DNA of 35,679 nucleotides from a virus (lineage: Duplodnaviria > Caudoviricetes). This document shows positions 13,028-32,534 of the stretch, one piece after another. Made by a program: the position numbers and the translations under genes. Each line of letters starts with the position of its first letter. The first letter of the stretch is position 1. The notes beneath the pieces were generated by a model. The model did not search any database. It was given only the letters and a program-made list of their open reading frames with translations, and had not been told where the DNA came from. The stretch spans positions 1-35,679 of IMG/VR virus record IMGVR_UViG_3300044216_004308, one strand, 5' to 3'.

Positions 13028-13873
13028 ATGCAAGAGAATCCGCTAACTAAATATTTTAGAAAGCCGGCAATTTACGTAAGTTTGCCTACTAAAGGAAGGT
13101 TTAATCCTGAAATAGAACAAACTGTTATTGATGAAGTAGGCGTCATGCCTATGACCGCTATTGATGAAATAACTTTAAGAAATCCTGACTCACTATTAAA
13201 TGGTGAAGCCATGATTAGCTTATTTAAAAGTTGTTGTCCTTCAATACCTAATCCTAGAAACCTATGCAATATTGATGCTGAGGCGTTGTTTTTAGCAGTA
13301 CAATATGCTACATATGGAAAAGAAATCACACATACTCACAAATGTAGTAAATGCGGTGAGCCAAGTGATTTTAGTATCGATATAAACTTTATATTGAACA
13401 AATTTCCAGATATAGAAAAAATAGAACCAATAATTTATGAAGACTTAGAGATACATATTAAACCTCCAAGTTTAGAAAGTGTAACACGGGTTGCTCTCAT
13501 TCAGCTAGAAGAACAAAGAATTGTTCAGAATATCAAAACACAAAGTAAAGATGATGCTGATGAGTTAGAACTTGCCAAACGTTTTTATTCAAGTTTTGAA
13601 CGTGTTGCTAGACATAACGTAGATTTATTGGCTGAAACAGTTTCTAAGCTAGTTACAAAAGATGCTGAAATTACAGATAAAAATCAAATTACTGAATTTT
13701 TATCAAATATACCAGCACAAATTGTAACTAAAATCAATAAGTCAGTAGAGCAAATCACTAGAAAACCAGATGATATCAACTCGTTTAAGTTTGTCTGTCC
13801 ACAAGAATCATGTGGGCATGAAGAAACAATTAAGCTGGAGATGAACCCTGTAAATTTTTCAGAAGCTGGTTAG
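13028..13873 (+). CDS. Baseplate hub assembly / tail chaperone protein (T4 gp26-like)
   Basis: NPL..YFRKP.IYVSLPTKG, PMTAIDE, DAEALFLAV..ATYG and two Cys pairs (CSKC, CPQESC); C-terminal PVNF. Confidence 0.75.
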   Translation: MQENPLTKYFRKPAIYVSLPTKGRFNPEIEQTVIDEVGVMPMTAIDEITLRNPDSLLNGEAMISLFKSCCPSIPNPRNLCNIDAEALFLAVQYATYGKEITHTHKCSKCGEPSDFSIDINFILNKFPDIEKIEPIIYEDLEIHIKPPSLESVTRVALIQLEEQRIVQNIKTQSKDDADELELAKRFYSSFERVARHNVDLLAETVSKLVTKDAEITDKNQITEFLSNIPAQIVTKINKSVEQITRKPDDINSFKFVCPQESCGHEETIKLEMNPVNFSEAG

Positions 13874-14091
13874 CAACCGCCAGCGGTGAAGATATTGTAG
13901 AAAAAACAAAAAAGTTTGAAAAAGAACTTGACAAGGTACATAAAAATCTGCTAGAATTAAGTTGGTATATGAGAGGTGGGGTTACGATTCGTGACTTACA
14001 CGATATGCCAGTAGGACATATTAAGTATATCAATGAGATAATTGAGAAAAACTTTGATATGAGTAAAAAGGCAGGAATGCCAATACTATAA
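13858..14091 (+). CDS. gp51-like ORF in the -1 frame, probable frameshift extension of the gp26-like gene (not in the ORF track)
   Basis: Frame open 13834-14091: FRSWLATASGEDIVEKTKKFEKELDKVHKNLLELSWYMRGGVTIRDLHDMPVGHIKYINEIIEKNFDMSKKAGMPIL. First ATG only at 13969; slippery heptamer at 13852-13858. Confidence 0.7.
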   Translation, partial: FRSWLATASGEDIVEKTKKFEKELDKVHKNLLELSWYMRGGVTIRDLHDMPVGHIKYINEIIEKNFDMSKKAGMPIL

Positions 14092-14119
14092 CTAATACAA
14101 CTAATAAAATCTAATATAT

Positions 14120-14590
14120 AACTCGGCGAATAGGAACAGGGAATGACTAATATCTCAGCATACATAGTGGAATCGTTTGTCGGGTCGCCGACACGGGATT
14201 GAGATTGCAAATATAAAGTTTGCCGTCGGACTAGTCAGGATGAATTCTGACATTCTTCTCGTAAACCACAAAGAGTATTCATAATCATAAAACAGCCATG
14301 GTTCCCTAAAGGACATGGTTGACTAGTAATAATATTACCGATGATAGGTTTTTATAACACTATCTGCTTTTTATAGTTTCTATCTATGTGGATTATAAAA
14401 AGTGCCGTTGGATCGAAAGATGCAATACTAAGTTAAGGAGGGATCGCCAACCGACTCCGTCGTAACTAGCGACTAACTTAGACATAGAGGCGATGAGCAA
14501 GGGACAGATAAGACAAGATATTTCTGTACAGCCGTTTTTTAATTGTCCTGGCAACAGGGCAATTATGGCTTCTTCACGGGACAGAGACTA
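14120..14590 (+). ncRNA. Candidate large structured non-coding RNA of unknown class
   Basis: ORF-free and richer in GC than its flanks; at least 9 stems with G-U pairs and GNRA loops on the + strand. Boundaries are approximate. Confidence 0.65.
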
Positions 14591-14596
14591 ATACTA

Positions 14597-14625
14597 TTGA
14601 CATATACCTATTAATGATATATACT
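14597..14625 (+). promoter_or_regulatory. Sigma70-type promoter for the resolvase gene
   Basis: TTGACA-N17-TATACT. Confidence 0.65.
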
Positions 14626-14719
14626 TATAAACAAATACCGAATTAATTCGAAAGAGCAAAGCGATTGAGAATTAAGAGGGATTAGGTCTTTAGACCTTTA
14701 ATGATGGAAAATAGAATTT

Positions 14720-15250
14720 ATGCCAAGCAAAAGTAAAGCAAAAGGTAGTAGCTATGAAAGAGATTTAGCTAAGTTCCTAAGTGAGAAATACAATGGTAGC
14801 TTTGTACGTGTACCTAATAGTGGTGCATATATAGGTGGTAGTAATTTTCATAGAGCAACTAATTTAAGTGAAGGACAAGTAAGAGGTTTTAAAGGAGATA
14901 TTATACCTCCTGATAACTGGAAGTATTTTAATTGTGAATGCAAAAATTATGCTGATTTTCCTTTTCACCATTTTCTACATAATAAAAAAATTCCTCTTTT
15001 AGAAGGTTGGATAAATCAAACTATGGAAATCGCAGAAGAAGGCGATGTGAATATTCTTTTTATGAAGTTTAGTCGTAAGGGAACTTACGTAGCATTTCAA
15101 GAAATACTATTGAACAAAGGCTGGAGAAGCCCTATTCATGTAAAATATAATTCTGAGAAATATGGAACTTGGATAGTTTTAAGTACAGAAGAATTTTGGT
15201 TATACAATACTGAAAGATTTGAATATCATTGTATCGATGGTATTAAATAA
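14720..15250 (+). CDS. Holliday junction resolvase-like PD-(D/E)xK nuclease
   Basis: SKAKGSSYERDLA, RVPNSGA, GDII and ECKNY motifs of Hjc-type phage resolvases. Confidence 0.8.
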   Translation: MPSKSKAKGSSYERDLAKFLSEKYNGSFVRVPNSGAYIGGSNFHRATNLSEGQVRGFKGDIIPPDNWKYFNCECKNYADFPFHHFLHNKKIPLLEGWINQTMEIAEEGDVNILFMKFSRKGTYVAFQEILLNKGWRSPIHVKYNSEKYGTWIVLSTEEFWLYNTERFEYHCIDGIK

Positions 15251-31880: not shown

Positions 31881-32474
31881 TTATGGTCTTGATTCAAGTA
31901 TTTCGTCAATTAACCCATAATCTAGCGATTCTTTAGGATCCATGAAGTTATCTCTTTCCATATCTGCATGTAATTCTGCGTATTTTTTCGCTTTAGAGTT
32001 GTGTTTGACATAGATATTAATCAGACGTTCTTTAATCTTCATAATCTCTTTTACTTGTATTTCCATATCAGTTGCCTGACCACCTGCACCACCGCTAGGT
32101 TGGTGTATCATATGTCTTGCATTTGGCAACATATATCTTTTTCCAGGAGCACCAGATGTTGCTAAGAGAGAACCCATAGAACATGCTTGTCCTATAACCA
32201 TAGTCGAAACATCTGGTTTGATAAATTGCATAGTATCGTAGATAGCCATGCCAGCCGTAACTGCACCTCCGGGTGAATTGATATAAAAATGAATATCTTT
32301 TGATGGATTTTCTGCCTCTAAAAATAAAAGTTGGGCACAAATTAAATCAGACTGGTAGTCGTTTACTTCACCAGTAAGAAATATAACTCTTTCTTTGAGC
32401 AAACGAGAGAAAATATCAAAACTACGTTCTCCATTTGCAGTTTGGTCAATCACCATTGGTACTAAATTAGGCAT
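31881..32474 (-). CDS. clpP: ATP-dependent Clp protease proteolytic subunit
   Basis: Start MPNLVPMV at 32474; [25 protein letters not shown]; catalytic Ser (ACSMGS), His (MIHQP), Asp (ERDNF). Confidence 0.96.
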
Positions 32475-32505
32475 AATATTATTTATACTCCTTAATAATA
32501 GTAAA

Positions 32506-32534
32506 AGTATAGAGGATTTTGATATTATTGTCAA
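32506..32534 (-). promoter_or_regulatory. Sigma70-type promoter for clpP
   Basis: TTGACA-N17-TATACT. Confidence 0.7.

What the first reader, a model, noticed from the sequence alone, without database searches (positions are those of the whole stretch)
14120..14590. Candidate large, ornate phage non-coding RNA (~470 nt) of unrecognised class
Seen: the only long ORF-free stretch in a very compact genome, covered by stems. Examples: ATCTCA/TGAGAT (14152/14200) enclosing TGTCGG-gtcg-CCGACA; long-range ACTAGTCA/TGACTAGT (14230/14320) enclosing CAGCCATG...CATGGTTG; GCTTTTTATAGTT/GATTATAAAAAGT (14366-14403); ATC-GAAA-GAT; a three-way junction closed by CTAAGTTA/TAACTTAG (14428/14474) with GGAG/CTCC and GTCG/CGAC arms; AGCCGT..AATTGTCCTG-GCAA-CAGGGCAATT-ATGGCT (14530-14570). 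G-U pairs and GNRA loops fit the + strand, suggesting RNA-level selection. The next gene has its own promoter at 14597, so this is not simply a 5'UTR. Known: phages carry large structured RNAs of unknown function (ROOL, GOLLD). I could not find hallmarks of tmRNA, RNase P or group I/II introns. Inference: a possibly new large ncRNA co-transcribed with the tail chaperone gene.
Basis: partly seen in the sequence, partly recalled or inferred. Interest (0 to 1): 0.85.

Follow-up and report, generated by a model that had tools for sequence, protein, structure and literature searches.

The report
Jumbo-phage origin RNA grips own DNA
This gene-free stretch holds a conserved, heavily knotted RNA-type element of marine giant phages, absent from the RNA family library searched, whose two short repeats change together; it likely pairs with its own DNA to start genome copying, and a small phage with no recognisable copying genes carries the same element.

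Summary
Real. 14163-14585 (+) is a conserved, four-pseudoknot RNA-type element of marine RaK2-like jumbo phages (83 distinct homologues, 66-99% identical; 44 of 98 pairs with compensatory change; no Rfam hit). The decisive part lies at the 3' end: an internal 8-nt word (14501-08) and a copy after the last hairpin (14578-85) change in lock-step, and their core mismatches are always those tolerated if the RNA word pairs with the template DNA strand. Downstream come an AT-rich stretch and single-stranded-DNA-type hairpins on the displaced strand; upstream, boxes shared with the gp32 (SSB) gene leader. Cultured enterobacterial relatives keep an element with the same core layout in five evenly spaced, co-oriented copies, and a 28-kb phage with no recognisable replication gene carries this cassette. 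Best reading (0.62): a ColE1/T4-like R-loop primer RNA at a replication origin; not shown by experiment. Against: no profile-level link to the enterobacterial RNA, no skew signal, weak expression data. The scan reported this RNA and this idea before on other genomes.

The parts
13928..13957 (+). sigma70-type promoter-like site inside the upstream reading frame (candidate promoter of the RNA; may owe its look to codons)
   Evidence: 11 of 12 with TG; same place in 11 of 40 loci, while 26 have a dedicated promoter in the gap; several RNA-library contigs begin at 13985-14019 (weak)
14092..14152 (+). A/U-rich leader with four CTAATA boxes, likely binding sites of the phage ssDNA-binding protein gp32
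   Evidence: only such cluster in the window; mean 4.45 CTAAT[AT] boxes in 40 loci; same boxes over the ribosome-binding site of the gp32 gene in G001 and G002
14163..14364 (+). 5' domain of the RNA: closing helix 14167-70/14266-69, hairpins 14173-96, 14207-23, 14234-51, 14293-14321, 14343-64, helix 14200-04/14257-61, pseudoknot 14241-45/14277-81, kissing strand 14323-26
14366..14488 (+). core domain: hairpin whose loop (14383-89) pairs with 14482-88; CCGTTG (14405-11) pairing with the loop 14447-51; GNRA hairpin; three-way junction 14428-14481 with a loop (14466-69) that kisses 14323-26
   Evidence: compensatory changes in all of these helices; same layout in the enterobacterial jumbo-phage element
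14501..14508 (+). R1, internal copy of the direct repeat; predicted guide that pairs with the template DNA strand at R2
   Evidence: lock-step with R2 and one-way wobble pattern
14535..14565 (+). U tract and terminal hairpin with G-rich 3' arm
   Evidence: 97.8% of cells paired
14578..14585 (+). R2, second copy of the repeat; predicted DNA target and start point of the R-loop
14586..14660 (.). AT-rich stretch (76% A+T), candidate unwinding element; holds a promoter-like site at 14597-14625
14643..14675 (+). hairpin with two tandem G.A mismatch pairs and a GC-AAA-GC cap, of the kind single-stranded DNA forms; candidate primase/helicase loading signal
   Evidence: only hairpin with two tandem GA pairs in the window; such a hairpin on this strand in 31 of 45 loci, on the other strand in 0 of 45
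14684..14697 (+). AGGTC-TTTA-GACCT hairpin
   Evidence: 43 of 45 loci
13028..14092 (+). context: T4 gp26-like gene (13028-13873) and its out-of-frame continuation ending at 14092
   Evidence: PHROG 150, PF12322; upstream of the RNA in 57 of 59 loci with enough flank
14720..15250 (+). context: RusA-like/PD-(D/E)XK resolvase gene; replaced by a SegE-type GIY-YIG gene in 36 of 83 loci

Best explanation
The stretch is a conserved, pseudoknotted RNA-type element followed by DNA hairpins, and it likely works as the pre-primer RNA of a phage replication origin. Shown by comparison: the fold, the lock-step repeat R1/R2, the strand-specific DNA-type hairpins, the gp32-leader boxes, the multi-copy relatives and the presence of the cassette in a small phage without recognisable replication genes. 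Inferred steps: (1) host sigma70 RNA polymerase transcribes the element early in infection; (2) the core folds and presents R1; (3) as the polymerase passes the terminal hairpin and R2, R1 pairs with the template strand at R2 and keeps the bubble open, so an R-loop persists over the AT-rich stretch; (4) a 3' end is made by a host or phage nuclease, or by termination, and the phage T4-like polymerase extends it; (5) gp32 recruited by the leader boxes and the hairpins on the displaced strand load helicase and primase.
For: R1/R2: longest shared word 7.12 nt within a locus against 5.08 between loci, highest of 5000 permutations 5.88, n=50; on a tree of the RNA body, position -2 changes 11 times in R1, 11 in R2, 11 jointly, position -1 4/4/4; no consistent complement inside the RNA. 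In 23 distinct R1/R2 pairs every difference at positions -2..+3 is R1 G against R2 A (6 cases, 0 reverse), as expected for rG.dT wobble on the template strand; R1 pairs better with the complement of R2 than the reverse in 46 of 50 loci, 3 the other way. Tandem-GA hairpin on the non-template strand in 31 of 45 loci, 0 of 45 on the other; GNA/GNNA mini-hairpins are more stable as DNA than RNA and occur at phage and plasmid priming sites (PMC13037366, passages). CTAATA clusters occur at two places in 187 kb of G002, the RNA leader and the gp32 leader; CTAATATCTATC occurs in G001 only in those two leaders. GAP32 has five copies of an element with the same core layout at 35, 99, 177, 261 and 341 kb, all on the strand of most genes; PA5oct has three co-oriented copies of its syntenic element, one annotated from RNA-seq as ncRNA004. 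A 28,342-bp phage contig (92% complete by CheckV) shows virion genes but no polymerase, primase, helicase, initiator, integrase or sigma factor in PHROGs/Pfam and carries promoter, boxes, an ornate RNA, a direct repeat around a terminal hairpin and the GA hairpin; two contigs with the same flanking genes carry the marine RNA itself, 84-86% identical to jumbo copies and nested among them. ColE1 and T4 oriF/oriG use promoter, persistent R-loop and displaced strand in this way (PMC5043065, PMC3016281, passages).
Against: No experiment. Neither nhmmer nor a covariance model of the enterobacterial core links the two families; the joint descriptor was written after seeing both and missed the G001 copy. 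In the enterobacterial family the direction test fails: 2 wobble against 2 reverse differences, and the reverse duplex is slightly better in 31 of 35. The R1/R2 anchor was chosen as the best-matching pair in each locus, which favours agreement. G001 (92% complete) has only one copy. Four-fold-site GC skew shows no switch at the element; the overall skew switch 6-7 kb away follows gene orientation. No RNase H (PF00075) in G001 or G002. T4 origins need no structured RNA, so the size and conservation of the core are not explained by priming alone. The small phage's RNA folds only weakly better than shuffles (z -1.16) and its contig may lack genes.
Confidence: 0.62

Rival explanations
1. The core is a ribozyme or guide scaffold that acts on its own locus: it cuts itself after R1 to make the primer end, or nicks or attacks the DNA at R2, alone or with the neighbouring nuclease.
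For: Many invariant unpaired residues and four pseudoknots in a compact core, more than an R-loop seems to need; R1/R2 agreement ends sharply after position +3; the next gene is always a nuclease where known (resolvase 18, GIY-YIG 36 of 83 loci; endonuclease VII in enterobacterial phages); no phage RNase H found.
Against: No Rfam ribozyme or intron hit; no joints in RNA contigs (contigs cannot show absence); the neighbouring nuclease is exchangeable and the marine RNA also sits beside unrelated genes.
Confidence: 0.15
2. A free ornate RNA in the manner of ROOL or GOLLD (scaffold, or sponge for gp32), acting in trans.
For: Size, ornate fold, own promoter in 26 of 40 loci, gp32-leader boxes, RNA-library contigs over 13990-14570.
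Against: Does not explain a repeat that changes in step with a DNA position 70 nt downstream with one-way wobble, the strand-specific DNA hairpins, or the even spacing and common orientation of copies. PA5oct ncRNA004 is of low abundance (0.02-0.08% of phage reads).
Confidence: 0.11
3. A cis-acting transcription control element (antiterminator or pause switch acting on RNA polymerase, with R1 competing for the template at R2).
For: Sits directly after a promoter and is co-oriented with most genes in GAP32; U tract and hairpin near the 3' end; RNA contigs of four runs stop at 14531-14533 (may be an assembly break at the T tract).
Against: The syntenic GAP32 copy points at a terminator and a convergent gene, with nothing to read through; the DNA hairpins and gp32 boxes are unexplained.
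Confidence: 0.07
4. A packaging or recombination signal, or a selfish RNA-nuclease element.
For: Adjacent nuclease genes; transfer to a small phage.
Against: Fixed position after the gp26-like gene in 57 of 59 loci with flank; the small phage has its own terminase and portal; no target duplications or patchy presence seen: 17 of 18 neighbours of the gp26-like gene carry it whole and the 18th is cut by its contig end.
Confidence: 0.05

Closest known systems
ColE1 RNA II pre-primer origin
   Same: Promoter, about 500 nt of folded non-coding RNA, predicted persistent RNA-DNA hybrid at its 3' end, displaced strand used for helicase loading (PMC5043065, passages). An upstream RNA segment pairing with the template strand near the origin is also reported for ColE1 (recalled, not seen in the passages read).
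   Different: No sequence family link; four pseudoknots; an 8-12-nt mixed-sequence guide that is free to change with its target; phage T4-like replisome and gp32 boxes; no antisense RNA I seen; R-loop not shown.
T4 oriF/oriG R-loop origins
   Same: T4-like phage, promoter followed by an AT-rich unwinding element, several origins per genome, gp32 needed (PMC3016281, passages).
   Different: T4 origins are about 100 bp, MotA-dependent and need no specific sequence or RNA fold; here 420 nt of conserved structure and a sequence-matched repeat.
ROOL, GOLLD, OLE large ornate RNAs
   Same: Large, ornate, phage-borne, function open (PMC12286853, abstract start in search listing only).
   Different: No Rfam match; tied to downstream DNA signals; no evidence of oligomeric cages or high abundance.
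Uncatalogued multi-copy RNA of RaK2/121Q/GAP32-like phages
   Same: Same syntenic site, same order of core helices and two core pseudoknots, CCGTTR and YAACC words, repeat around a G-rich terminal hairpin, AT-rich stretch, GA hairpins.
   Different: Opposite orientation at this site, 4-5 copies against 1 found, different 5' domain, no profile-level similarity.

Membership tests
ColE1-type RNA II origin | Sequence/structure family match to ColE1 replication-control RNAs | tested here: not met
   No Rfam hit; that Rfam holds RNA I is recalled
ColE1-type RNA II origin | Long non-coding transcript from a sigma70 promoter upstream of the start point | tested here: inconclusive
   Promoter-like site in 37 of 40 loci; RNA-library contigs at low depth, strand unknown; only 38 of 504 indels are multiples of three
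ColE1-type RNA II origin | Persistent RNA-DNA hybrid, primer made by RNase H | not testable with these tools
   Only comparative signs; PF00075 absent from G001 and G002, a host enzyme is possible
ColE1-type RNA II origin | Antisense regulator complementary to the 5' end | tested here: inconclusive
   Only a 9-of-12 promoter-like match on the - strand at 14238, at chance level; conservation not tested
T4 oriF/oriG-type origin | Promoter plus downstream AT-rich unwinding element | tested here: met
   76% A+T at 14586-14660 against 65% for the window; promoter-like sites
T4 oriF/oriG-type origin | Short, sequence-independent R-loop region; MotA middle promoter | tested here: not met
   420 nt of conserved covarying structure; promoters are TTGACA-type
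ROOL / GOLLD / OLE | Match to the Rfam covariance model | tested here: not met
ROOL / GOLLD / OLE | Abundant free RNA forming homo-oligomers | not testable with these tools
   No raw reads available; contigs cannot give level
Group I/II intron, RNase P, tmRNA | Catalytic-core or tRNA-like hallmarks detected by Rfam/ARAGORN; interrupted host gene | tested here: not met
   element is intergenic
RaK2/GAP32-like multi-copy RNA (uncatalogued) | Profile-level sequence similarity | tested here: not met
   nhmmer both ways; covariance model of the core, filters off
RaK2/GAP32-like multi-copy RNA (uncatalogued) | Same core topology and 3' cassette | tested here: met
   One descriptor recovers 44 of 51 marine and 30 of 32 enterobacterial sequences; 9 hits in 3.17 Mb, all known copies; 1 hit in 7.92 Mb of reversed and shuffled controls; written after seeing both families
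RaK2/GAP32-like multi-copy RNA (uncatalogued) | Several evenly spaced co-oriented copies per genome | tested here: not met
   One copy in G001 (342 kb, 92% complete) and in G002 (51%); diverged copies could be missed

The most novel reading that the evidence does not exclude
An RNA-guided replication initiator: a superfamily of pseudoknotted RNAs, with at least three sequence classes on one core fold, that uses a freely evolving 8-12-nt internal guide to find its own DNA and catalyses the step that makes the primer end (self-cleavage or DNA nicking), with no initiator protein; and small phages without replication genes capture and swap this cassette to parasitise the jumbo phage's replisome.
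Probability: 0.17. Interest if true: 0.96.

Novelty: new variant of a known kind. Interest (0 to 1): 0.82.

Why it matters
How RaK2-like jumbo phages start DNA replication is not described in the papers found, and the function of large ornate phage RNAs is an open question. This element gives one such RNA a concrete, testable job with a two-site compensatory experiment (R1 against R2), and cultured relatives growing on laboratory E. coli K-12 carry the counterpart. It would be a second, independent family of structured pre-primer RNAs beside ColE1, with a programmable RNA-to-DNA guide, and the small phage would be a new kind of satellite that keeps its own virion genes and borrows origin, late promoters and replisome from a jumbo helper.

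Tried and rejected
Rfam on the window, on 7 related loci and on 4 more: nothing. blastn against 50,697 phage records: no match. One strict pattern scan of GTDB genomes: 0. Protein-coding reading: rejected, 38 of 504 indels keep frame, longest + ORF median 35 aa. An internal complement for R1/R2: no consistent site. Profile links marine to enterobacterial: failed. A relaxed descriptor on G001, G002, Phosso and PA5oct gave no more hits than reversed controls and is uninformative. GC skew as origin marker: confounded with gene orientation, four-fold sites noisy. RNase H family search: 1 of 5 genomes (Atu_ph07), not the marine ones. RNA runs: 18 seawater metatranscriptomes hold 30-55% of the words; 8 were laid, all as contigs at depth under 10 over the element, found by this gene, probably one campaign; uncovered parts prove nothing and four contig ends at 14531-33 may be an assembly break at a T-tract length variant. 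Phosso has one copy of its syntenic element by blastn and Atu_ph07 and RaK2 have no long gap at this site. PA5oct ncRNA002 is unrelated by blastn. One search was a pattern search of no use.

Full report
Setting. The window is a 35,679-base virus record with T4-like portal, capsid, gp46/47, late sigma and baseplate genes. Its gp26-like protein is closest to Sinorhizobium phage Phosso and Agrobacterium phage Atu_ph07 (33%) and RaK2/GAP32-like phages (26-29%) among 96 matching records: a jumbo phage whose nearest relatives are environmental contigs, with seawater runs holding the stretch. The finding lies between the out-of-frame continuation of the gp26-like gene (stop at 14092) and a resolvase gene (14720).

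Observation. The + strand folds at z -2.43, the - strand at -0.58. Rfam and ARAGORN find nothing. Of 18 viral loci found through the gp26-like protein, 17 hold the whole element and one is cut by its contig end. I aligned 46 of these 51 (one reference could not be resolved, four near-duplicates or truncated copies were left out) and counted a 98-pair structure drawn from the covariation scan: 92.1% of cells pair, 44 pairs change on both sides, 0 of 500 shuffles reach this, and slid partners pair at 35-44%. The structure was derived from these sequences, so the controls lean in its favour; two pairs of helix 6 and the middle of helix 9 are poorly supported in this alignment. Four pseudoknots covary: 14241-45/14277-81 (2 of 5 pairs), 14323-26/14466-69 (2 of 4), 14383-89/14482-88 (5 of 7) and 14407-11/14447-51 (1 of 5). 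Only 38 of 504 indels keep frame, so it is not a protein gene.

The repeat. GGGACAGA stands at 14501-08 (R1, right after the core) and at 14578-85 (R2, 12 nt after the terminal hairpin). In 50 homologues the two sites share 7.12 nt on average against 5.08 between loci (highest of 5000 permutations 5.88), and no consistent complement exists in the RNA. On a FastTree of the RNA body without the repeats, position -2 needs 11 changes in R1, 11 in R2 and 11 jointly; position -1, 4/4/4. Among 23 distinct pairs all differences at -2..+3 are R1 G against R2 A (6, none reverse), with 4 more wobble-type differences at +4 and 1 reverse at -3; R1 pairs better with the complement of R2 than R2 with the complement of R1 in 46 of 50 loci, 3 the other way (RNA energies as proxy). 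The simplest partner complementary to R2 is the template DNA strand (inference). The anchor was the best-matching pair in each locus, which favours agreement but not the direction.

Flanks. After R2 come 75 bases at 76% A+T, the window's only hairpin with two tandem G.A pairs (14643-75) and AGGTC-TTTA-GACCT. A tandem-GA hairpin lies on the RNA-like strand in 31 of 45 loci with flank and on the other strand in 0 of 45; the second hairpin is in 43 of 45. Mini-hairpins with GNA/GNNA loops are much more stable as DNA than as RNA and occur at priming sites of G4 phage and at ssiA (PMC13037366, passages); that tandem G.A pairs are a DNA motif is recalled. Upstream, 37 of 40 loci have a TTGACW-type promoter: 26 in the gap, 11 inside the upstream frame where codons may mimic it. 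The leader holds on average 4.45 CTAAT[AT] boxes. G003 has three further clusters that look incidental. T4 gp32 binds its own mRNA leader (recalled), so the boxes are likely gp32 sites (inference).

Cultured relatives. GAP32, CBB, BF, Kaldavass, Munch, XaC1 and JNE01 have a 680-810-base gene-poor gap at or beside the same site, holding a different conserved element on the opposite strand. blastn finds it in 72 phage records, 285 places. GAP32 has five copies, at 35.1, 98.8, 177.5, 261.5 and 340.7 kb, all on the strand of most genes. Its covarying helices come in the same order as the marine core, with the same two core pseudoknots and the words CCGTTR and YAACC, then a repeat around a G-rich terminal hairpin, an AT-rich stretch and GA-type hairpins. 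Profiles do not link the families. One descriptor, written after seeing both, recovers 44 of 51 marine and 30 of 32 enterobacterial sequences, gives 9 hits in 3.17 Mb (all known copies; G001 missed) and 1 in 7.92 Mb of controls. I read this as a shared core fold, probably by descent, not proven. In that family the repeat also changes in step but shows no wobble direction. PA5oct has three co-oriented copies of its own syntenic element, one of them ncRNA004, annotated from RNA-seq at 0.02-0.08% of phage reads (PMC7318152, passages).

A small phage with the cassette. Two of 59 loci with flank lack the gp26-linked gene upstream (L268, L270). Their upstream gene led to two viral contigs. G005 is 28,342 bases, 92% complete by CheckV; 47 protein scans in PHROGs over it, its relative G006 and L270, and 20 in Pfam, show terminase, portal, scaffold, capsid, tail, an HNH nuclease and a glycosyltransferase, and no polymerase, primase, helicase, initiator, integrase or sigma factor; many small ORFs have no match. 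At the site where L268/L270 hold the marine RNA (84-86% identical to jumbo copies, nested among them on a midpoint-rooted tree without support test), G005 and G006 hold a third RNA type between the same promoter, CTAATA boxes, a CTTCAAGT repeat around a terminal hairpin and the same DNA hairpins; its core can be drawn on the same layout by eye, though it folds only at z -1.16. G005 also has the jumbo phage's late-promoter-like word 44 bases before its scaffold gene. An exchangeable cassette in a phage with no recognisable replication genes is what a borrowed origin would look like (inference).

Mechanism. ColE1 opens its origin with a 550-nt transcript that forms a persistent hybrid, is trimmed by RNase H, and leaves the displaced strand for helicase loading (PMC5043065, passages); T4 oriF/oriG use a promoter and an AT-rich element, and gp32 is needed on R-loop substrates (PMC3016281, passages). 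The element has the parts of both, plus a guide. I put 0.62 on an R-loop pre-primer origin, 0.15 on a catalytic core acting at R1/R2 (which could still serve initiation), 0.11 on a free ornate RNA, 0.07 on transcription control, 0.05 on packaging or mobility. Results against: one copy only in G001, no skew signal beyond gene orientation, no phage RNase H, no direction signal in the enterobacterial family, and expression shown only by low-depth contigs of RNA libraries over 13990-14570.

Novelty. Ten literature searches and passages of the PA5oct and CBB genome papers gave no description of this RNA; the library lacks most subscription journals. The catalogue of candidate viral RNAs (PMC10690425) could hold fragments: five motifs were absent from the readable supplements, but its alignments could not be read. 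I also read passages of PMC12599619 and PMC8391903 without effect on the reading; PMC12286853 was seen only in a listing. Earlier notes of this scan describe the same marine RNA (e1-5771475, e1-8104643, e1-8685325) and the enterobacterial one (e1-5618603, e1-5618612, e1-5619232, e1-122653), several with the origin idea; they are not independent support. I had the origin reading before the look-ups. Added here, as far as the few lines shown allow me to judge: the one-way wobble test, the shared core layout of the two families, the PA5oct ncRNA004 link and the small phage with a swapped cassette. Verdict: a real, uncatalogued RNA family, most likely a new variant of RNA-primed origin; interest 0.82.

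Noticed in passing
G005 (L719/L720), G006 (L718), L268, L270: Small siphovirus-like phage of about 30 kb with virion genes, no recognisable replication or sigma genes, jumbo-type late-promoter words and a swappable origin-like RNA cassette: candidate satellite of the jumbo phage.
   Followed up: partly
L717:8679-9111 and L718:8377-8813 (+): Third class of ornate RNA (about 430 nt, no Rfam hit, 89% between the two copies) with the same core layout and a CTTCAAGT direct repeat; preceded by a short basic ORF after the promoter.
   Followed up: partly
window 13852-13860 and 13876-14092: AAATTTTTC at the end of the gp26-like gene, kept in relatives, followed by an out-of-frame 71-codon frame conserved in 18 of 18 loci: likely programmed frameshift of the lambda G/GT type.
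   Followed up: partly
NC_019401.1 (GAP32) 35.1, 98.8, 177.5, 261.5, 340.7 kb: Five co-oriented copies of an unannotated ~520-nt structured element, each after a promoter-like site.
   Followed up: yes
PA5oct 12.9, 76.0 and 246.1 kb: ncRNA004 of the PA5oct paper has two unannotated paralogues; the syntenic one is overlaid with small hypothetical CDS calls. Each of the two inspected ends in a hairpin flanked by a short repeat.
   Followed up: partly
L020:4733-5746 (-), phage Phosso: 1-kb gene-free stretch beside an RNase HI gene with promoter-like site, stems and GCGAAG-type hairpins; single copy; no profile match to either family.
   Followed up: partly
G002 106241-106291, G001 237745-237790 (-): CTAATA boxes over the ribosome-binding site of the gp32 gene: candidate translational operator.
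   Followed up: yes
window 12962, 13009, 20542, 20582, 8847, 8450, 4396, 2682: [AC]TAAATA words 26-93 bases before structural genes: T4-like late promoters.
   Followed up: partly
gene after the RNA in related loci: Three unrelated nucleases alternate at this position: RusA-like resolvase, SegE-type GIY-YIG (145 aa) and endonuclease VII.
   Followed up: partly
G001 70.9-71.5, 131.0-134.5 kb (-): Other structured non-coding stretches among the tRNA clusters, not examined.
   Followed up: no
window 31881-32534 (-): Phage-encoded ClpP protease (PF00574).
   Followed up: no
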